A stretch of 64,000 nt of DNA from a virus (IMGVR_UViG_3300021400_000141:257354-321353); one strand, 5' to 3'. Positions 43,361-55,888 are shown, counted from the first letter of the stretch. Notes: generated from the letters alone by a model not told the origin. A program made the numbers and translations.

Positions 43361-43676
43361 GTTCTTTGTGTAAATTTCAGAGTGGTGGAGATTTCTCCAC
43401 CATAATGATGACTACTGTGTATAACACTTTGGTTATACGCTTGTGGAAAAGTGGATTTCGACAGTTTGCGGACACGGCGGTTAACAGTCGGCGTCCGACG
43501 CCACAACCAAAAAACAAATTGTCTATAATGGTAACAGGCTGGCGGTGTCCACTGGTCTCCATTCGGTGATTACCCGTCGTTGGCGGTAGGTTCGTGAGTT
43601 TTGAGTAAAGCTCTCTGCGTCCAATCCTGACGCACCCGTGACAACACGTGAAAGGGGTGGTGCCCATGGGTCTTGT

Positions 43677-43749
43677 TGGCATGTAGTTCAGTTGGTAGAA
43701 CGGGCGACTGTTAATCGCCAAGTCACTGGTTCGAGTCCAGTCTTGCCAG
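43677..43749 (+). tRNA. tRNA-Asn(GTT)
   Basis: Cloverleaf; GGCGA-CTGTTAA-TCGCC. Confidence 0.9.
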
Positions 43750-44027
43750 TTAAATTGGAACTTTGGGTCGCTCCCAAAGAACTCCGCAGGTGAAAAGCGG
43801 CCCCTAATAACTTGTGATAATTGCGTGGTAGCTCCATCGCAGGATACCCAAGCGAAAAGGGCAGCCTATTAGCCTGAGCATTTAAAAACGGGGCTCCGCA
43901 GGTGTTTAGCATTTACTCTGCGGAGAAGATGAAGGTCCTGGCGTCCAATGCTTGTATAAGTCAGTTCGACCATGCATCAGTGAAGTTTTTATCCATTTGT
44001 GCGGATATCGACCGTTCTTCACATTTT

Positions 44028-47109: not shown

Positions 47110-47343
47110 CGAATTTTAATGATACAAGCATACAACCGAGACATTGGAGCAACAATTCTCGGTGGCGATTAAATCGGCTTTGGATTTGCTAGTCCGAGAC
47201 AGAGATATTCAGCCGATTGACTGACTGGGCGACCGTTAATGTATGCTGAATCGATGTGGACCACAGGTGTGCGGTGCGACAGGGGAAGGTCAACCCTTCT
47301 TACGAGTCCCCTCGGGTCGAGTATCATTATTTATTTTTCTTTT

Positions 47344-47432: not shown

Positions 47433-47437
47433 CTAAA

Positions 47438-47507
47438 AGTCAGTGTCGTTTGAAAGCGTTACTTAGGATGAAGCTAAAAATAACACGCTTTCTCTTTTTA
47501 CCTGACT
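47438..47507 (+). ncRNA. Free-standing copy A of the conserved RNA module (Y-RNA-like candidate)
   Basis: AGTCAG/CTGACT and GAAAGCGT/ACGCTTTC stems; TGTCG, TTACTT and TTTTTACC motifs. Confidence 0.6.
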
Positions 47508-47515
47508 TCTTTTGT

Positions 47516-47646
47516 TCCAGGATAGCTCAGTTGGTTAGAGCACGTAATAATACCTGTCCGTTTTTCCCCTGTGCAAGGGTGGCGTTTGGAATGGGTTACT
47601 TAGCCTGTTAAGCTCGGGGTCGTAGGTTCGAGTCCTACTCCTGGTA
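47516..47646 (+). tRNA. tRNA-Asn(GTT) interrupted by a 57-nt structured insert at position 28/29 (47545-47601)
   Basis: Removing the insert gives CGAGC-CTGTTAA-GCTCG and a 74-nt cloverleaf. Confidence 0.75.
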
Positions 47647-47657
47647 CTAATAAAATT

Positions 47658-47744
47658 TCCAGTGTCGCTAGAAACCGATACTTCGCTCTGTCTTTTCACA
47701 CAGATTGCCCGAATGGGCGTACACGGTTTCGCTTTTTACCTGGA
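47658..47744 (+). ncRNA. Free-standing copy B of the conserved RNA module
   Basis: TCCAG/CTGGA and GAAACCG/CGGTTTC stems; TGTCG, TACTT and GCTTTTTACC motifs. Confidence 0.6.
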
Positions 47745-47749
47745 TTTCT

Positions 47750-47874
47750 GCCGGCGTAGCTCAGTGGTAGAGCGCGTATAAACCTGTTCGCTTTTTCTCC
47801 CGCAAGGGTGGCGACAGAATGGGTTACTTAGTCTGCAAAACTCGTGGTCACAGGTTCGAATCCTGTCGCTGGCA
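47750..47874 (+). tRNA. tRNA-Cys(GCA) interrupted by a 53-nt structured insert at position 28/29 (47777-47829)
   Basis: Removing the insert gives CGAGT-CTGCAAA-ACTCG and a 72-nt cloverleaf. Confidence 0.75.
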
Positions 47875-48146
47875 CTAAGCAATCTTTCCGTTTCAGCGTA
47901 GCAGCAAACGGTGCCGATTCGCAGGCGGCACACCAAACCGTATGAGTAGCCTTTCCGTGGCTGGAAGGTGGCGAAAGACATAAGGTGATTCTTGCGGATA
48001 TATCGGTCGCTCCGATGAAATTTCCTTTTGTAAACGGCTGTTTCGCACAGCGCAAGCTCCCTTTCGGAAACAAAAGTTAAAAGGGATTATGATAGCAGAT
48101 GACCAAAAAGCCATTGGTAGTATGCGAAGGAACAAATGCGAGGTTA

Positions 48147-48870: not shown

Positions 48871-49476
48871 CGAAATAGGCACTGAGAGATGGTCATGTGT
48901 TGCAAGACACGTTATAAAATCCAAAGGTTGCGGAGAAATCCACATAACGGGTGCCGACAAGATTTTTCCACAATCACAGTAAGCTTCCGTCTTCGCCACA
49001 ATGCAGTTGGCGGGAGTTATGGATAGGGTGCGAGTAGTTCACCGTGGACTGGCTTAGCATTCGTCTCGTGATGCCCAGATGCGTCATCCCGATTAGTTAA
49101 ACCCTTTTCGGTGAGGGCAGACTGCTCTCATTCTAGGTGTGGAAGTCAAGGGAGGAAGATGATGCACCAGTTCCTGTTCTGACTAACAGGATATGTTGCG
49201 TGAAGGGATGCAGGTATTAAAGCCCGCATGCGCCGACAAAGAATTGCAGCTGCCGTTCCGAATAGAGGCAGGTCCTTAATGAGGGCGGGTACAGCAATGT
49301 TGCTGCAAGAGGTGCATTAGGTCAAGATAACAGACGACTTCATGTTTTCAATCAGGTACTGTTCCCTGCGGTGAAACCGAAAACTGGCCGCATTGATTTG
49401 CGCATAGGTGCGGATGATTGTCTCTATAAGAGCACGGCTTTGCCATTCAGCTTGTCACGAAAGAGAATGGCGACTC

Positions 49477-49562
49477 GCGCAAGTACCCAAGCGGACGAAG
49501 GGGGAGGTCTGCAAAACCTCTAGGCCGAAAGGCTCGCGTAAGTTCGACTCTTACCTTGTGCT
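49477..49562 (+). tRNA. tRNA-Cys(GCA) with a long variable arm
   Basis: GAGGT-CTGCAAA-ACCTC; variable arm GGCC-GAAA-GGCT; U73. Confidence 0.8.
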
Positions 49563-50386: not shown

Positions 50387-50521
50387 CCCACAGTAGCTCA
50401 GTCTGGTAGAGCGCTAGTAAATGAAACAGTCTTCCGACTTTTTCCCTGCAAAGGTGACGCAGGAATGACTTACTTCGATAATGGTGACTGGATGTCGTAG
50501 GTTCAAATCCTGCCTGTGGGA
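50387..50521 (+). ncRNA. tRNA body (Pro-like) with the conserved module in the anticodon arm; no canonical anticodon recoverable
   Basis: Intact acceptor, D and T arms; insert has TTCCGACTTTTTCCC...GGTGACG...GAATGACTTACTT. Confidence 0.65.
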
Positions 50522-50604: not shown

Positions 50605-50612
50605 TAAAACAT

Positions 50613-50763
50613 GCCGACGCCTCCCCGTCAATCTGGCGACAGGTTGATTAACGGTAGGGGAGGGTTCCTCTTACAACTTTCTCGGTGAAAATCGTTGCGA
50701 TGTGAGAGTTACTTAGATTGCCATAACATTAATCTTTTGAAAGTTCGACTCTTTCCGTCGGCA
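50613..50763 (+). ncRNA. Highly derived tRNA-like RNA with an enlarged D arm and a GTTACTT-containing insert
   Basis: GCCGACG/CGTCGGC acceptor; GAAAG-TTCGACT-CTTTC T-arm; CCTCCCC/GGGGAGG long stem. Confidence 0.55.
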
Positions 50764-50776
50764 TGTTTTTCTTTAC

Positions 50777-50914
50777 GCCAGATTAGCTCAATGGTAGAGC
50801 TCCAGGCCAAAAAACAGCACTTTCGCTTTTCCCAATCCCATGGATTGTGGTGTATGAAATGTGTTACTTAGGATAACACCCAGGAGGTTGTCGGTCCGAG
50901 TCCGACATCTGGCT
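50777..50914 (+). ncRNA. tRNA body with the conserved module in the anticodon arm, immediately upstream of the TROVE gene
   Basis: GCCAGAT/ATCTGGC acceptor, D and T arms; insert has TTTCGCTTTTCCC...GGTG...GAAATGTGTTACTT. Confidence 0.65.
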
Positions 50915-50966
50915 ATACTTTTTTAAACAACATCAACAATTCCTAATCACAACAAAGGAGATGATT

Positions 50967-52307
50967 ATGGCGTCGATTAACAAGAGAAAGGTATCTACCC
51001 CTGTGTTTACTCACGAGGGTGGAAAGGCTTCACACATCGGTTTCGAGGAGAAGTTGCAGCGTACTGTGCTGTGCTGCCTACTGAACGAGGATACGTTCTA
51101 TGAGGACGGAGAGTCCATCAAGGACCGCATCAAGGAATACATGGGCAAGGTCAGCACCGAGTTCGCAATCGCGACTCTGAACAAGGCCAAGCACGAGTAT
51201 CACCTTCGTCATACCCCGTTGTTCATGCTTACTGTGCTCGCAAGTCAGGGTAAGCTGACTAAGGAACTTGTTTATTCGACGGTAACCCGTGTTGATGACA
51301 TCACCGAGTTGCTCGCCATGTACCTCGCAGACGGCAAGAAGAAGACTCTTCCGAAGCAGTTGCAGAAGGGCTTGGCTATGTCGTTCGACAAGTTCGACGA
51401 GTACCAGTTCGGTAAGTACAAGGGTAGCAAGAAGACGGTTTCCTTGAAGGATGCAGTCATGCTGTGCCACCCGAAGGCACCGAATGACGAGAAGAACGCT
51501 CTCTACAAGAAGATTGTGGACAATAGCCTTGCTACTCCGCTTACTTGGGAGACTGAGTTGAGCGCTGGTAAGGACAAGAAGACGGTCTTCGAGAACCTTC
51601 TTTCAACGAACAAGCTGGGTGCACTCGCCCTGTTGAGAAACCTCCGCAACATGGAGCAGGCTCAGGTCTCGCAGCATGCAATCGTAGACGGCATCGCAAA
51701 GATGAACGTGTGTGGTATCATGCCGTACAACTTCTACACCGCAAACAAGCACAGCGATGGAACCTACTCCAAGCAGCTTGAGGCAGCAATGCTTAGGGCA
51801 GCTCGTGAGACGTTCGACAAGTTGGAGGGTAACACCTTGTTCATGGTCGATACGTCGGGTTCTATGAACAACTCTTTGGCAGGTAAGAGCGAGGTCTCTC
51901 GTGGAGAGGCTGCCGCATCCCTCGCTGCCATCATGGATGAGGTCTGTGAGTTCGACAAGGTTTACACCTTCGATATGGATGCACACGCAACCACATCCAA
52001 GGGCTTTGCACTTGCCGACCGTTGTGCTCGTTGCACTGGCGGTACTAACCTTTACGGTTGTACAAACAGTGCGGTTAGAGCTAACACCAGACCGTTTGAC
52101 CGTGTGATTATCATCACCGACGAGCAGTCTATTGGTGGTTCCTTCGACAAGGATGTTCTCCGCATCCCGCACAAGTACATCGTGAACGTTGCCCCTTACC
52201 AGTTCGGTATTGCATACGGTGACTTCATCCACATCAACGGATTCAGCGACGGTATTTTCAAGTACATCGCTGAGTACGAGAAGATGGGTGCAAAGAGCGA
52301 AGAGTAA
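50967..52307 (+). CDS. Ro60/TROVE-domain RNA-binding protein with a vWA domain
   Basis: THEGG, HLRHTPL, LTWETELS, LALLRNLRNM; vWA DTSGSM and IIITDEQ; SD AAGGAG. Confidence 0.9.
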   Translation: MASINKRKVSTPVFTHEGGKASHIGFEEKLQRTVLCCLLNEDTFYEDGESIKDRIKEYMGKVSTEFAIATLNKAKHEYHLRHTPLFMLTVLASQGKLTKELVYSTVTRVDDITELLAMYLADGKKKTLPKQLQKGLAMSFDKFDEYQFGKYKGSKKTVSLKDAVMLCHPKAPNDEKNALYKKIVDNSLATPLTWETELSAGKDKKTVFENLLSTNKLGALALLRNLRNMEQAQVSQHAIVDGIAKMNVCGIMPYNFYTANKHSDGTYSKQLEAAMLRAARETFDKLEGNTLFMVDTSGSMNNSLAGKSEVSRGEAAASLAAIMDEVCEFDKVYTFDMDAHATTSKGFALADRCARCTGGTNLYGCTNSAVRANTRPFDRVIIITDEQSIGGSFDKDVLRIPHKYIVNVAPYQFGIAYGDFIHINGFSDGIFKYIAEYEKMGAKSEE

Positions 52308-52920: not shown

Positions 52921-54258
52921 ATGCAGAACACTGACTTTATTGAAACTCTTTCCGCAAAACTGACTGACGGTGTACAACCAGCTATGGATTTGGTGGTAGA
53001 AAACATCCTAAATGAATCTGATTTTGCAAAGTATGGCAACGACGAAGAGGATGTTTACTACAAGTATTCAATCCTCCTTCGTGCATCTGGGTTCCGCCCG
53101 AACGAGTTCGAAAATGAACTGAGGGCATCCGTAAGTGCCGCATCAGATATTGCTGTCACGTCGAATTCGAAAAGAGGCAAGGCTTTGGACCGTGAGTCGT
53201 TGCTGTGCGAGGTGATTGAATATCTCGCCAAGGAATACTACAACGGTCATGAAAAGGCTTCAGACGATGCGTATGACGGTCTCGTAATGGAACTTCGGTC
53301 TATCAATCCGAAGAACCCGTTGGCTGCGGGTGGGTTGGCGGCAGCCGACGATACGGGCCGCAAGAAATTCCAGCATTACCTTGTTACGGGAACACAGCAG
53401 AAGTATGCCAATATGGACGCATTTGCGGAAGAATGGTTCCCGCAGTATGGTGGCAAGCATCGCCTTATGCTGAATGGAAAATGCGATGGTGCTGGCAGCG
53501 AAGTTATGTATCAGGACGGTCATATCATCCAAGCGATTTCCCGTGGCGACGGTTTCCAAGGTGAGGATATAACTCAATCTGCTTTGAAGTGGAAGGGTCT
53601 TATTCATGAAATTCCGAACTTCACGGGTTCAATCCGTGGTGAGTTCATGTTGAAGGAAAGCGTATTTCTCGAAAAGTATTCCCAGTCGAAGAAGACAGCT
53701 AGAAACGCCAGTGCAGGAATCTCTAAGCGTCTTGACGGTTCTGGCTCAGAAGATATGTCCTTTGTCGCATACGATGTTCTCAACAGGGCTCCAACACAGT
53801 TCAAGACCGAACTGGAAAAGATGCAGTGGCTGGAATCCTGCGGGTTTGAAGTTCCTATGTACGAACTTGTCGATACGCTAGAACAGATTGAAGCGTTCCG
53901 TGAAAAGGTGTTCGCCAGTCGAAAGAAATCTATTGACTACGGTTGCGATGGCATTGTTGTCAAGATAAACGACATCGATTATGAAGACCTTCGCCGCAAG
54001 ACCCCGATGACCCAGTGTGCCATCAAGTTCAAGCTGGAAACTGCAGAAACCAATCTAATTGGAATAGAATGGAGCTGCAAGGGTAGGTATCTTTCTCCCG
54101 TAGCCATCCTGACCCCGACTGAACTGGATGGTGTTACTGTCGAGCGTGCATCATTGGCTAACTTAAATAAAATGATGCAAATGGGCATCCAAATTGGCTG
54201 TAAAGTGCAAATTTCCCGTCATGGAGAGGTAATTCCGCAGGTTGATAAGGTTGTGTAA
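52921..54258 (+). CDS. ligA: NAD-dependent DNA ligase, N-terminal part (adenylation and OB domains)
   Basis: YYNG..SDDAYD, GKCDG (KxDG), ISRGDG..GEDIT, RGE, RNASAG, DGIVVK, AIKF, GEVIPQV. Confidence 0.9.
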   Translation: MQNTDFIETLSAKLTDGVQPAMDLVVENILNESDFAKYGNDEEDVYYKYSILLRASGFRPNEFENELRASVSAASDIAVTSNSKRGKALDRESLLCEVIEYLAKEYYNGHEKASDDAYDGLVMELRSINPKNPLAAGGLAAADDTGRKKFQHYLVTGTQQKYANMDAFAEEWFPQYGGKHRLMLNGKCDGAGSEVMYQDGHIIQAISRGDGFQGEDITQSALKWKGLIHEIPNFTGSIRGEFMLKESVFLEKYSQSKKTARNASAGISKRLDGSGSEDMSFVAYDVLNRAPTQFKTELEKMQWLESCGFEVPMYELVDTLEQIEAFREKVFASRKKSIDYGCDGIVVKINDIDYEDLRRKTPMTQCAIKFKLETAETNLIGIEWSCKGRYLSPVAILTPTELDGVTVERASLANLNKMMQMGIQIGCKVQISRHGEVIPQVDKVV

Positions 54259-54335: not shown

Positions 54336-54995
54336 ATGAAACAGCTAATCGTCATCATCCTTGCTTTCGTCGCAATGACCTTTGCGGAAGGCTTTCATAA
54401 TGGAACGGGGTTCTTTATCAACTCCGAGTACATCGTAACGGCATATCATGTCGTAGAGGATTACGACTACAATTGTTATTACGATATCCAGAACGATTCG
54501 TGCTATAAGGTGAGTATCGTTGATTACGATAAGGAAAGAGACATTGTTCTCTTGAAGCTGGACGAGGAACCTGTCGCAATGCCTATGGTGTGCCGCATCG
54601 CACACACAGAATTGCCTGTCGGGGAAAAACTTACCTCGTATGGCTACCCAGAACCGTTCCTTGACCATGATTTGACTGTTATCCCGATGAATATCCGTGT
54701 TCAATATCGTTACGACGGGGATTATAGTTATTATCGCATGACTGGAACTCTGCAGCTTGGTATGTCTGGTGGGCCCAATTTTACAAAGGATGGTCGAATT
54801 GGTGGAGTGAGCAAGTCGATATCGACGATGGAAAGGAATACCAGCAACCTGATTAAGTCTACAGAAGTGATTCGTCTTATTCGCAGAAATGGTGTAAGGG
54901 AATATCCGAACACCAAGAATGTTAAAAAGTGTGTTATCAGCATTGTGAACAGCAAGAAAGTATTCAAGTCTGCTCACACAGAATGGGGGGTATAA
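54336..54995 (+). CDS. Secreted trypsin-like serine protease
   Basis: Signal peptide MKQLIVIILAFVAMTFA; GTGF, TAYHVV (His), DIVLL (Asp), GMSGGP (Ser). Confidence 0.85.
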   Translation: MKQLIVIILAFVAMTFAEGFHNGTGFFINSEYIVTAYHVVEDYDYNCYYDIQNDSCYKVSIVDYDKERDIVLLKLDEEPVAMPMVCRIAHTELPVGEKLTSYGYPEPFLDHDLTVIPMNIRVQYRYDGDYSYYRMTGTLQLGMSGGPNFTKDGRIGGVSKSISTMERNTSNLIKSTEVIRLIRRNGVREYPNTKNVKKCVISIVNSKKVFKSAHTEWGV

Positions 54996-55888
54996 TGGTT
55001 CCCGAAAAATATAGAGAATACGTGGCATCGAACATCGAGTTTCCGAAGGAATGTCCTGTCTGCCACGGTGAGTTGAACGTATTGGATAACGGGATGGTTT
55101 GCTGCGTTAACCCGTCCTGCCCGCAGAAGATTGTCCACAAGTTTGCAAACTTCTTCGATGTCTTGGCGATTGACGGTGCAGGCGAAAGCTGTGTTTCGGC
55201 CCTTGTCAATGAAGTGGGGATGAAACGTATTCCCGAGTTGATTTCCGATGCTATCTCTGGTGGAAACGGACTGTCTGCAGCAATGAAGAGCCAAGTGAAT
55301 GGAGCGAAGTTGCGGAAGAACATGCTTGCTGCCATGAATGAACCTATTTCCATGAGCAAGTTCCTCTCTCTGTTTGATTTTGATGGGTTCTCGGAAGCTA
55401 AGTTGTCTGGATTGGAACGCCTTGAAGTGTTCGGTGGATGGTATGACAATCCGTTGGGTACACTGGCTACCCTCCGTTCCTATACCCCAGAGAAGCTTTC
55501 CATGTTGGTTATTCCTGGGTTCAGTGCGTATGAAGTCAAGTTGAATTTGTTTACGCAGGTGTTCGACTGTCTTGATGAAATCACTGGAACGGTTGAAATG
55601 GGCAAATTTACATTCAAGAAGTCTGTAGAAATGGATGCTCTCGGTGGGATGTCGTTCTGTTTCACAGGTGCGATGGAGTACAATCGTGACGACCTTGAAC
55701 GCACGGTAAAGGCGTATGGCGGGCTCGTGAAGGGTAGCGTTAGTGCCAAGCTGGACTATCTCGTTCAGGCCGATGAAAATTCCACCTCGACAAAGTCTAA
55801 GAAGGCGAAGCAGCTCGGTGTAAAGATTATTACCCCAGAAAAGTTCTTTGCCCTATTGAAAGAAAAGGGTGTAAATACTATATTGTAA
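54995..55888 (+). CDS. ligA: NAD-dependent DNA ligase, C-terminal part (Zn finger, HhH, BRCT)
   Basis: CPVC...CVNPSC; FCFTGAM..NRDDL...GG.VKGSVSAKLDYLV...KSKKAKQLGVKII; TAATG-coupled start. Confidence 0.88.
   Translation: MVPEKYREYVASNIEFPKECPVCHGELNVLDNGMVCCVNPSCPQKIVHKFANFFDVLAIDGAGESCVSALVNEVGMKRIPELISDAISGGNGLSAAMKSQVNGAKLRKNMLAAMNEPISMSKFLSLFDFDGFSEAKLSGLERLEVFGGWYDNPLGTLATLRSYTPEKLSMLVIPGFSAYEVKLNLFTQVFDCLDEITGTVEMGKFTFKKSVEMDALGGMSFCFTGAMEYNRDDLERTVKAYGGLVKGSVSAKLDYLVQADENSTSTKSKKAKQLGVKIITPEKFFALLKEKGVNTIL

What the first reader, a model, noticed from the sequence alone, without database searches (positions are those of the whole stretch)
47516..47874. tRNA-Asn and tRNA-Cys interrupted at position 28/29 by homologous 57- and 53-nt inserts
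Seen: both inserts start TA, end GAATGGGTTACTT and fold as an AACC/GGTT-based hairpin with a U-rich internal loop and a GCAA-containing cap. Exact removal restores perfect 5-bp anticodon stems with canonical loops (CGAGC-CTGTTAA-GCTCG; CGAGT-CTGCAAA-ACTCG). Known: bacterial tRNA introns are normally long self-splicing introns in the anticodon loop, while short non-canonical-position introns are archaeal and need a BHB motif, which I could not find here. Uninterrupted Asn and Cys tRNAs also exist in the array. Inference: a new mini-intron class needing a protein nuclease/ligase, or tRNAs carrying a permanent Ro60-docking arm.
Basis: partly seen in the sequence, partly recalled or inferred. Interest (0 to 1): 0.9.

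Follow-up and report, generated by a model that had tools for sequence, protein, structure and literature searches.

The report
tRNA-shaped Y RNAs for phage Ro60
The two "interrupted tRNAs" are most likely not tRNAs awaiting splicing but tRNA-shaped Y RNAs that carry a permanent docking hairpin for the phage's own Ro60 protein. They are the known bacterial YrlA RNA built in ordinary tRNA gene order, with open acceptor ends, which I did not find described.

Summary
A tRNA-Asn-like gene (47516-47646) and a tRNA-Cys-like gene (47750-47874) each carry a homologous 57- or 53-nt hairpin between positions 28 and 29.

The intron reading is not supported.

- The hairpin is the Ro60-binding module of YrlA-type Y RNAs.
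- The same module lies in three more tRNA-like bodies and two free-standing RNAs, all within 3.5 kb upstream of a TROVE/Ro60 gene on the same strand, and nowhere else in the 419-kb megaphage.
- AsnY and CysY correspond segment for segment to canonical phage YrlAs, circularly permuted. Permuted in silico, they align end to end to a profile of 29 YrlAs (60-64 bits). Native, they match as two swapped halves.
- All four helices covary across 27 distinct copies.
- At least nine other Ro60-encoding phage contigs carry this unpermuted form.
- The anticodon-like loops vary between lineages.
- No splicing endonuclease or BHB motif is present.
- Metatranscriptome contigs carry the inserts, and none skips them.

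Verdict: a new topological variant of a known RNA family, of moderate interest. Ro60 binding and the absence of splicing are inferred, not shown.

The parts
47516..47646 (+). AsnY: tRNA-shaped Y RNA with 7-bp open acceptor stem, D arm, T arm and an anticodon-like arm (loop CUGUUAA)
   Evidence: Sequence. Conserved in 7 relatives. The permuted form aligns end to end to the YrlA profile at 60.1 bits.
47545..47601 (+). 57-nt insert of AsnY: 5' linker UAAUAAU, helix 2 (ACCUGUCC/GGAAUGGGU), internal loop (GUUUUUCC / GUGGCGUUU, which holds the G-N-C-G Ro60-type motif), distal stem capped by GCAA, 3' linker UACUU
   Evidence: Folds. Model R1 at 87.9 bits. Covariation.
47750..47874 (+). CysY: second tRNA-shaped Y RNA (loop CUGCAAA, discriminator A)
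   Evidence: Rfam tRNA 48.9 bits across the insert. ARAGORN i(31,53). Permuted form 63.9 bits.
47777..47829 (+). 53-nt insert of CysY, the same module as in AsnY
   Evidence: R1 91.6 bits.
47434..47515 (+). Y1: free-standing Y RNA that fills the spacer between tRNA-Tyr and AsnY. It has a terminal stem, a CAGUGUCG...CUUUUUACCUG internal loop, helix 2 and the UUACUUAG motif. It is the open-ended form of the same module.
   Evidence: Fold z = -2.66. Motifs. Conserved in relatives.
47648..47749 (+). Y2: free-standing Y RNA that fills the spacer between AsnY and CysY
   Evidence: Fold z = -2.87..
50387..50521 (+). Third tRNA-shaped Y RNA: intact acceptor, D and T arms and a 5-bp stem CUAGU/ACUGG, with the module and no canonical anticodon loop
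   Evidence: Rfam tRNA 46.8 bits. R1 35.6 bits. Permuted form 58.3 bits.
50605..50776 (+). Y3: remodelled tRNA-like RNA (acceptor GCCGACG/CGUCGGC, T arm GAAAG-UUCGACU-CUUUC, long hairpin in place of the D arm) that carries a hairpin-type module
   Evidence: Fold z = -5.13. Motifs. Conserved in relatives.
50777..50914 (+). Fourth tRNA-shaped Y RNA, ending about 50 nt before the TROVE start codon. Its T loop is UCCGAGU.
   Evidence: Rfam tRNA 43.5 bits. R1 22.6 bits. Permuted form 37.2 bits.
50961..52307 (+). Phage Ro60 (TROVE domain plus a vWA-type DxSxS motif), 448 aa. It is the presumed binding partner of all seven RNAs.
   Evidence: Pfam TROVE 3e-15. More than 5,700 homologues, some named 60 kDa SS-A/Ro. 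D297, S299 and S301 are invariant.
43676..43750 (+). Ordinary uninterrupted tRNA-Asn(GUU) with discriminator G. It is not closely related to AsnY.
49477..49562 (+). Uninterrupted tRNA-Cys(GCA), 86 nt with a long extra arm and discriminator U. It is not closely related to CysY.

Best explanation
AsnY and CysY are Y RNAs of the YrlA type, encoded in ordinary tRNA gene order.

**Architecture.** Each is a complete tRNA mimic with an open 7-bp acceptor stem, D arm, T arm and a 5-bp anticodon-like stem with a 7-nt loop. From the 5' strand of that stem, between nucleotides 28 and 29, the Ro60-binding module emerges as a hairpin. The module is joined by an A-rich 5' linker and the conserved 3' linker UACUU. 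Canonical YrlA is the same RNA cut differently: its module is open and carries the RNA's 5' and 3' ends, and its acceptor stem is closed by a loop.

**Inferred mechanism.**
1. The array is transcribed as a precursor.
2. RNase P and 3' processing at the tRNA-shaped units release AsnY and CysY, and with them the spacer RNAs Y1 and Y2.
3. The module, with its G-N-C-G strand in a bulged helix, docks the phage Ro60 encoded 3 kb downstream.
4. The tRNA-shaped part recruits a tRNA-binding partner, not yet identified, to the Ro60 particle. This probably serves RNA surveillance or repair during infection.

The insert is retained, not spliced out.

**Shown here:** homology, the permutation relation, covariation, genomic linkage to TROVE, and the presence of insert-bearing sequence in RNA libraries.

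**Inferred:** Ro60 binding, the processing sites, the absence of splicing, and the biological role.
For: 1. **Linkage.** The TROVE gene is at 50961-52307 on the same strand. Model R1 finds the module only four times in the 419-kb genome, all within 3.5 kb upstream of TROVE.
2. **Same module in other contexts.** It occurs in three further tRNA-like bodies and two free RNAs in the same stretch.
3. **Motif shared with other phages.** In 73 other TROVE-encoding viral loci, the motif G-N-C/U-G, helix, UACUU clusters just upstream of TROVE on the coding strand, across 31-67% GC.
4. **Same junction as canonical YrlA.** Canonical phage YrlAs have the identical junction. An example is L126: D arm-G-CC-AAAAUA-helix 2 ... 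helix 2-UUACUU-CGC CUGUUAA GCG-GG-AGGUC-T arm-closed acceptor. Their core matches Rfam YrlA locally.
5. **Circular permutation.** Permuted in silico, AsnY and CysY align over positions 17-144 of a 162-position profile of 29 canonical YrlAs at 60.1 and 63.9 bits. Native, they match as two halves in swapped order (about 32 bits, and 17-22 bits). Ordinary tRNAs of the array score 10-15 bits.
6. **Covariation.** In 27 distinct unpermuted copies, 90.8% of cells pair, against 41-49% when partners are slid. 17 of 18 pairs change on both sides, in all four helices.
7. **Distribution.** The unpermuted form is kept in 7 close relatives and recurs in L089, L106, L108, L110, L128, L135, L153, L154 and L161.
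8. **Literature.** YrlA is a Ro60-bound tRNA mimic with a GNCGAAN0-1G motif (PMC4201824). It has a conserved UA kink and is described as resembling a circularly permuted tRNA (10.1101/312249). A phage Ro60 binds phage Y-like RNAs (PMC12135203).
9. **RNA libraries.** Contigs from three metatranscriptomes run through the inserts.
Against: - No experiment shows that this Ro60 binds these RNAs.
- The module lacks the AA of the published GNCGAAN0-1G motif.
- The curated Rfam YrlA model does not hit the region at all.
- Exact removal of the insert gives a flawless anticodon arm. The CUGUUAA loop recurs with compensatory stem changes in distant phages (L089, L108). This shows selection on that arm and would also fit a spliced tRNA.
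- RtcB is encoded in the genome.
- The RNA evidence comes from assembled contigs only. These cannot reveal short mature tRNAs and cannot exclude DNA carry-over.
Confidence: 0.8

Rival explanations
1. The inserts are true protein-spliced mini-introns. An unknown endonuclease cuts at 28|29, RtcB joins the exons, and functional tRNA-Asn and tRNA-Cys result.
For: - Removal restores perfect 5-bp stems and canonical 7-nt loops.
- RtcB and a CCA-adding enzyme are encoded.
- The anticodon-like stem covaries and the CUGUUAA loop is kept in distant phages.
- Wang et al. raised the possibility that some YrlAs are processed towards tRNAs.
Against: - No EndA-type endonuclease is found; the best match is 12.9 bits, under the cut-off.
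- The junction is a three-way junction with 5-7-nt linkers, not a bulge-helix-bulge.
- The same module sits in bodies that cannot give an anticodon arm (50387, 50777, 50605) and in free RNAs.
- The homologous junction exists in canonical YrlA, reported as a Ro60-associated RNA.
- Loops vary widely between lineages, and group-B relatives have an 8-nt loop.
- Both RNAs have A73, where Asn needs G73 and Cys needs U73 (established identity rules).
- Uninterrupted isoacceptors exist.
- No contig skips the insert.
Confidence: 0.08
2. Dual use. The full-length RNA is a precursor. The module is cut out to give a separate linear or circular Y RNA for Ro60, and the ligated remainder serves as a tRNA or tRNA mimic.
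For: - Free-standing Y1 and Y2 are circular permutations of the insert.
- RtcB can circularise RNA (established knowledge), and it is encoded.
Against: - It has the same lack of a nuclease and a cleavage motif as the intron model.
- The phage already encodes free Y RNAs.
- Covariation of the 27-28:42-43 helix together with the module fits one folded unit.
- No skipping contigs were seen.
Confidence: 0.07
3. The inserts are a selfish or accidental insertion, such as a small mobile repeat, that inactivated duplicate tRNA genes. The genes would be pseudogenes without function.
For: - Intact Asn and Cys tRNAs exist elsewhere in the array.
- The copies are similar to each other.
Against: - The module is confined to the TROVE neighbourhood.
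- It is always at the same tRNA position.
- It is conserved with compensatory changes across phages whose Ro60 proteins are about 40% identical.
- The region is present in RNA libraries.
Confidence: 0.02

Closest known systems
YrlA (Y RNA-like A; Rfam RF02553; Chen et al. 2014, PMC4201824; structure in Wang et al. 2018, 10.1101/312249)
   Same: - Encoded beside and on the same strand as Ro60.
- G-N-C-G...G motif strand in a bulged helix.
- Conserved UA after the helix.
- tRNA-like D and T arms with tRNA consensus nucleotides.
- The module is attached at the anticodon-stem position, with the same 27-28:42-43 junction.
   Different: - Gene order is that of a tRNA (D arm before T arm), with open acceptor ends and a hairpin-closed module. 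In YrlA the RNA ends lie in the module and the acceptor is a closed loop.
- A full anticodon-like arm is present, whereas Salmonella YrlA lacks an anticodon loop.
- The AA of GNCGAA is absent.
- The Rfam model does not detect it.
Mycobacterium smegmatis YrlA after processing (Chen et al. 2014)
   Same: Ends up with an open 7-bp acceptor stem. It is cut by RNase P and receives CCA, so it is a Ro60-bound RNA with a tRNA-like free 3' end.
   Different: There the open acceptor arises by cleaving a permuted transcript into two pieces. Here it is encoded directly, as one continuous chain.
Deinococcus radiodurans Yrn1, and the actinophage Y RNA at L012:3780-3950
   Same: The D-like arm precedes the T arm and an anticodon-like arm is present. 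Both are Ro60-linked.
   Different: The tRNA-like part is joined to the Ro60 stem through the acceptor-stem position, so there is no free acceptor end.
Archaeal and eukaryal tRNA introns at non-canonical positions, and permuted tRNA genes of Cyanidioschyzon merolae
   Same: A short insertion in the anticodon stem whose exact removal restores the cloverleaf. RtcB-type ligase is present.
   Different: No bulge-helix-bulge motif and no splicing endonuclease. The insert is itself a conserved functional RNA module shared with non-tRNA contexts.
Two-piece tmRNA from circularly permuted genes (alpha-proteobacteria, some cyanobacteria)
   Same: A tRNA-mimicking RNA family that exists in two circularly permuted gene arrangements.
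   Different: A different RNA, partner protein and function.

Membership tests
YrlA-type Y RNA (RF02553; Chen et al. 2014) | Encoded within about 4 kb of a Ro60/TROVE gene, on the same strand | tested here: met
   TROVE is at 50961-52307 (+). AsnY and CysY lie 3.1-3.4 kb upstream on the + strand. There are no module copies elsewhere in the genome.
YrlA-type Y RNA (RF02553; Chen et al. 2014) | GNCGAAN0-1G motif on the Ro60-binding strand | tested here: inconclusive
   AsnY has GGCGUUUG and CysY has GGCGACAG. G-N-C-G and the closing G are kept at the right spacing, but AA is not. Other phage TROVE loci show GGCGUAG, GGUGAAG and GGCGAAG at the same place.
YrlA-type Y RNA (RF02553; Chen et al. 2014) | Conserved UA between the Ro60-side helix and the T arm (the kink nucleotides of the crystal structure) | tested here: met
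   UACUU is invariant in all copies here and in canonical phage YrlAs.
YrlA-type Y RNA (RF02553; Chen et al. 2014) | tRNA-like D and T arms with tRNA consensus nucleotides | tested here: met
   Rfam tRNA model: CysY 48.9 bits, 50387 element 46.8 bits, 50777 element 43.5 bits.
YrlA-type Y RNA (RF02553; Chen et al. 2014) | RNA ends paired in the Ro60 stem, T arm 5' of D arm, acceptor closed by a loop | tested here: not met
   The order is D arm, module hairpin, T arm, with open acceptor ends. Native sequences hit the YrlA profile as two swapped halves, and only the in-silico permuted form aligns end to end.
YrlA-type Y RNA (RF02553; Chen et al. 2014) | Reaches the Rfam gathering score (69 bits) | tested here: not met
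   No RF02553 match at E up to 10 in 47450-47900. Canonical phage YrlAs also reach only 32-36 bits locally.
YrlA-type Y RNA (RF02553; Chen et al. 2014) | Bound by Ro60 in vivo | not testable with these tools
   Needs immunoprecipitation or a gel-shift assay.
Protein-spliced tRNA intron (archaeal/eukaryal type) | Bulge-helix-bulge (or relaxed hBH) motif at the exon-intron junctions | tested here: not met
   In the covariation-supported structure, both junctions are single-stranded linkers of 5-7 nt at the base of one 8-bp helix in a three-way junction. No 3-nt bulges separated by 4 bp are present.
Protein-spliced tRNA intron (archaeal/eukaryal type) | Splicing endonuclease (EndA/Sen) available | tested here: not met
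   The best PF01974 match in the complete phage genome is 12.9 bits, E 0.04, under the cut-off. Bacteria are not known to have one.
Protein-spliced tRNA intron (archaeal/eukaryal type) | RtcB-type ligase available | tested here: met
   PF01139 at 160.6 and 55.6 bits in a 400-aa frame at genome 347254-348321.
Protein-spliced tRNA intron (archaeal/eukaryal type) | Spliced product exists | tested here: inconclusive
   Four metatranscriptomes were laid on the region. Contigs run through the inserts and no joint skips 57 or 53 nt. Contigs cannot show short mature tRNAs.
Bacterial self-splicing (group I) tRNA intron | Intron of about 200 nt or more with a group I core, located in the anticodon loop | tested here: not met
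   The inserts are 53-57 nt and lie in the stem. No intron family was matched in Rfam.
Decoding tRNA-Asn / tRNA-Cys | Discriminator identity element (G73 for AsnRS, U73 for CysRS; established identity rules) | tested here: not met
   Both window RNAs have A73. The phage's ordinary tRNA-Asn has G and its tRNA-Cys has U. Close relatives of CysY have U73 and L089 AsnY has G73, so the position is not fixed.

The most novel reading that the evidence does not exclude
Because these Y RNAs are encoded with genuine tRNA ends and a complete anticodon-like arm, they may be matured like tRNAs by RNase P and CCA addition, and may even be aminoacylated or cut by anticodon nucleases. The Ro60 particle would then carry a charged or cleavable tRNA. 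It could serve as a decoy or sensor for host tRNA-targeting defences, coupled to Ro60 and RtcB repair. The unpermuted form may also be the ancestral link that shows how YrlA arose from a tRNA, by gaining a Ro60-binding hairpin in the anticodon stem and then being permuted through tandem copies.
Probability: 0.15. Interest if true: 0.8.

Novelty: new variant of a known kind. Interest (0 to 1): 0.55.

Why it matters
- **A third way to join a tRNA mimic to a Ro60 site.** Y RNAs that mimic tRNA are known only as circularly permuted, closed-acceptor RNAs (YrlA) or as acceptor-attached forms (Yrn1). A form in native tRNA order, with free ends and a full anticodon-like arm, is a third arrangement.
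- **It is recurrent.** It appears in at least ten Ro60-encoding phage lineages from gut, rumen and other metagenomes.
- **It bears on the origin of YrlA.** It gives concrete intermediates for the proposal that YrlA evolved from tRNA or from dimeric tRNA transcripts.
- **It points at the unknown effector.** The partner of the tRNA-like domain may see a whole tRNA shape, including a U-turn loop.
- **It matters for annotation.** tRNA finders call these genes "tRNA with intron" or place a false tRNA inside them, as ARAGORN did at 47573-47647. YrlA models miss them.

Tried and rejected
- **ARAGORN call at 47573-47647.** ARAGORN places an uninterrupted tRNA-Asn there, using insert sequence as its 5' half. 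I rejected it: 22.8 bits is below Rfam's cut-off, the acceptor is mismatched and there is no D arm.
- **Rfam YrlA on the region.** No hit, as expected for a permuted order.
- **Near-identity search in GenBank phages.** Only a tRNA-Lys fragment matched.
- **Exact 15-mer scan of viral contigs.** 72 hits, almost all chance. Only the five contigs that also hold the related TROVE gene were informative.
- **L012:8016-8145.** ARAGORN called a 'tRNA-Pro with intron' here. It shows no module and was dropped.
- **First automatic classification.** My first pass at sorting permuted from unpermuted copies gave many ambiguous 'both' calls, because loose acceptor pairing allowed spurious matches. I re-checked the cases by eye and by folding.
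- **MAFFT alignment A3.** It mis-registered helix 2 in distant copies, so pair counts were taken on the model-fitted alignment A6 instead. That alignment leans towards the structure.
- **RNA runs.** No contig joins across either insert. This says nothing about mature 72-75-nt products, which contigs cannot show. Several 'joints' were chimeras through conserved tRNA segments of other organisms.
- **RtcA.** Absent from the genome.
- **ARAGORN 'tRNA-Thr with 175-nt intron' at genome 388452-388720.** Not supported by Rfam.
- **Two Wolin reviews and the supplements of Chen et al.** Not held in the library. I therefore could not exclude that an unpermuted form is mentioned there.

Full report
**1.

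The window is part of a complete 419-kb megaphage genome with terminal repeats. The DNA is found in sheep, bovine and other gut metagenomes. It carries a tRNA array of 36 ARAGORN calls.

- At 47516-47646 there is a tRNA body whose anticodon stem is split after nucleotide 28 by 57 nt.
- At 47750-47874 a second body is split at the same place by 53 nt.
- Both inserts begin TA and end GAATGGGTTACTT.
- Removal restores CG+AGC/GCUCG with loop CUGUUAA, and CG+AGU/ACUCG with loop CUGCAAA.
- Rfam's tRNA model spans CysY with a 66-nt insertion at 48.9 bits. ARAGORN in intron mode reports tRNA-Cys with a 53-nt intron.
- Ordinary tRNA-Asn and tRNA-Cys genes exist at 43676 and 49477.
- Seven related contigs, whose Ro60 proteins are 84-96% identical, keep both genes with their inserts.

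**2. The surroundings change the picture.**

- The Rfam tRNA model also spans two further long tRNA-like genes, 50387-50521 and 50777-50914.
- The ORF that starts about 50 nt after the last one (50961-52307) is a TROVE/Ro60 protein (Pfam 3e-15). It has thousands of homologues, some named 60 kDa SS-A/Ro, and an invariant DxSxS motif.
- The spacers 47434-47515 and 47648-47749 fold as classic Y RNAs: a terminal stem, an asymmetric internal loop and a second helix (z = -2.7 and -2.9). They share the insert's motifs in permuted order.
- A third spacer, 50605-50776, is a remodelled tRNA-like RNA with the hairpin form of the module.
- A covariance model of the hairpin module (R1) finds four copies in the whole 419-kb genome, all within 3.5 kb upstream of TROVE.

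**3. The module is the Ro60-binding module of YrlA-type Y RNAs.**

I collected 73 further TROVE-encoding viral loci. The strand motif G-N-C/U-G, helix, UACUU clusters immediately upstream of TROVE on the coding strand, in genomes of 31-67% GC.

Many of these RNAs are canonical YrlAs as described by Chen et al. (PMC4201824):
- 5' stem;
- motif strand (published as GNCGAAN0-1G);
- helix;
- then T arm, closed acceptor stem-loop and D arm;
- helix, pyrimidine-rich strand and 3' stem.

Rfam's YrlA model matches their tRNA-like core locally (35.9 bits). Wang et al. (10.1101/312249) describe YrlA as resembling a circularly permuted tRNA. They note a conserved UA at the junction, which is the UA of the UACUU seen here.

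**4. AsnY and CysY are the same RNA, circularly permuted.**

Compared with a canonical phage YrlA such as L126:1600-1720, every segment has its counterpart:

| Segment | Canonical YrlA (L126) | AsnY |
|---|---|---|
| After the D arm | N26 | N26 |
| 27-28 | CC | CG |
| 5' linker | AAAAUA | UAAUAAU |
| Module | open, carries the RNA ends | closed by GCAA |
| After the module | helix 2, 3' strand, then UACUU | helix 2, 3' strand, then UACUU |
| 3-bp stem and 7-nt loop | CGC CUGUUAA GCG | AGC CUGUUAA GCU |
| 42-43, then 5-nt variable loop and T arm | GG | CG |
| Acceptor | closed by a loop | open |

To test this, I built a profile from 29 canonical YrlAs from other phages.
- AsnY and CysY permuted in silico (cut in the GCAA loop, acceptor ends joined) align over profile positions 17-144 at 60.1 and 63.9 bits (E about 1e-17).
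- The native sequences match only as two halves in swapped order (about 32 bits, and 17-22 bits).
- Ordinary tRNAs of the array score 10-15 bits.

**5. The structure is under selection as one unit.**

I counted pairs on 27 distinct unpermuted copies aligned to R1.
- 90.8% of cells form standard pairs, against 41-49% when the partners are slid by 1-3 columns.
- 17 of 18 pairs show changes on both sides, spread over four helices: the 27-28:42-43 helix, helix 2, the distal helix and the 3-bp anticodon-like stem.
- The alignment is fitted to the model, which favours the structure. The contrast with the slid controls is nevertheless large.

**6. The unpermuted form is not a curiosity of one phage.**

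Complete examples have a 7-bp open acceptor, a D arm, the hairpin module at 28/29 and a T arm. They occur in L089/L090, L106, L108, L110, L128, L135, L153, L154 and L161, whose Ro60 proteins are about 38-42% identical to the window's.

- L089 and L108 again have a CUGUUAA loop, with different and compensating stems: AGA/UCU and UCA/UGA.
- Across permuted and unpermuted Y RNAs, however, the loop varies: CUGUUAA (5 lineages), CUAUUAA, CUGCUAA, AUGCUAA, UUUUUAA, CUAUGGA, AUUAGGA, CUGCAAA and others.
- In the window's group-B relatives the 'Cys' loop is replaced by an 8-nt loop, AUUAGGAA.
- What is conserved is therefore an anticodon-arm shape, with U33 and a 7-nt loop, and not a particular anticodon.
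- The exon parts of AsnY and CysY are no closer to the phage's own tRNA-Asn and tRNA-Cys than to other tRNAs. Both carry A73 rather than G73 or U73.

**7. Intron tests.**

- The phage genome has RtcB and a CCA-adding enzyme.
- It has no RtcA and no EndA-type endonuclease (12.9 bits, below the cut-off).
- The junction geometry is a three-way junction with long single-stranded linkers, not a bulge-helix-bulge.
- No intron family is matched in Rfam.
- In four metatranscriptomes, contigs run straight through the inserts. Examples are a 459-nt contig covering 47368-47823, a 1026-nt contig covering 47075-48096 and a 731-nt contig covering 47579-48309. No contig skips 57 or 53 nt.
- In the run from the source sample, exact-match contigs differ about 50-fold in depth (7 to 360). 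This suggests RNA rather than carried-over DNA. Contigs cannot show mature short tRNAs, so this evidence is weak.
- RtcB does not discriminate between the readings, because in Salmonella it is in one operon with rsr and yrlA (abstract of PMC7790460).

**8. Mechanism proposed.**

*Shown:* the architecture, the homology, the linkage to TROVE and the conservation.

*Inferred:*
- The precursor is punctuated by tRNA-processing enzymes. AsnY and CysY have normal 7-bp acceptors and the same CUA trailer as their neighbours. Y1 and Y2 exactly fill the spacers between tRNA-shaped units.
- The hairpin docks the phage Ro60 through the G-N-C-G strand of the bulged helix. This follows from the analogy with GGUCCGA in vertebrate Y RNAs and GNCGAA in YrlA.
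- The 3' strand of the anticodon-like stem is continuous through positions 39-43, so the arm can stack as in a tRNA. The module would hang from two flexible linkers.
- The tRNA-shaped part recruits a tRNA-binding factor. The partner is unknown. For other Y RNAs it is PNPase, including for a Thermus phage Ro60 (PMC12135203).

**9. Comparison and novelty.**

The RNA works like YrlA and is homologous to it, but it fails YrlA's defining topology and the curated model. I did not find the unpermuted form in the papers I could read. Two reviews and the supplements of Chen et al. were not available. I therefore rate it a new variant of a known kind.

It is relevant to the proposal that YrlA arose from dimeric tRNA transcripts. 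Two tandem unpermuted copies, transcribed from mid-module to mid-module, would give exactly the permuted YrlA. This last point is my inference.

**10. Verdict.**

- The intron interpretation is unlikely (about 8%, plus about 7% for a dual-use variant).
- The permanent Ro60-docking arm is likely (about 80%).
- Interest is 0.55.

Other first-stage notes on this window had already listed the module family and the permutation. I checked these claims here independently.

Noticed in passing
window 49036-49438 and 47151-47322: Two non-coding spacers inside the tRNA array are covered by exact-match metatranscriptome contigs at far higher depth (220-360 in the source-sample run) than the TROVE gene (55) or the neighbouring tRNA-like genes (7-32). 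They may be abundant unannotated small RNAs.
   Followed up: no
window 49477-49562: The uninterrupted tRNA-Cys(GCA) is 86 nt long with a long extra arm, which is unusual for tRNA-Cys. Rfam scores it at 48.6 bits.
   Followed up: no
L007:2547-2676, L011:2341-2471 (also L008, L010): In the 84-85% relatives the second chimera has an 8-nt loop, AUUAGGAA, in place of the Cys loop. A similar AUUAGGA loop recurs in the unrelated contig L154:4360-4483.
   Followed up: partly
L012:3780-3950: A high-GC actinophage Y RNA carries an almost complete tRNA-Thr(UGU)-like domain (Rfam tRNA 46.9 bits). It is joined to the Ro60 stem through the acceptor position, which is a third topology beside the permuted and unpermuted forms.
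   Followed up: partly
L089:4085-4211: This distant AsnY has G73 and a CUGUUAA loop, but its D loop lacks GG and its T loop is UGCGAAU. The elbow contacts seem to have degenerated on both sides together.
   Followed up: no
window 52921-54258 and 54929-55888: An NAD-dependent DNA ligase appears split. The adenylation and OB domains are in one ORF and the BRCT-containing part is in another, with a trypsin-like protease ORF (54336-54995) between them.
   Followed up: no
genome C1:347045-348321 (outside the window): A tRNA-Leu(UAA) gene lies directly upstream of the phage RtcB gene, far from the main tRNA array.
   Followed up: partly
genome C1:388452-388720 (outside the window): ARAGORN calls a tRNA-Thr with a 175-nt intron here. 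Rfam finds neither a tRNA nor an intron, so it is probably a false call.
   Followed up: yes
window 50777-50914: The Y RNA nearest the TROVE gene has a T loop UCCGAGU, with C at the position of the universal U55. In L006 and L009 its 3' region differs from the window's.
   Followed up: no
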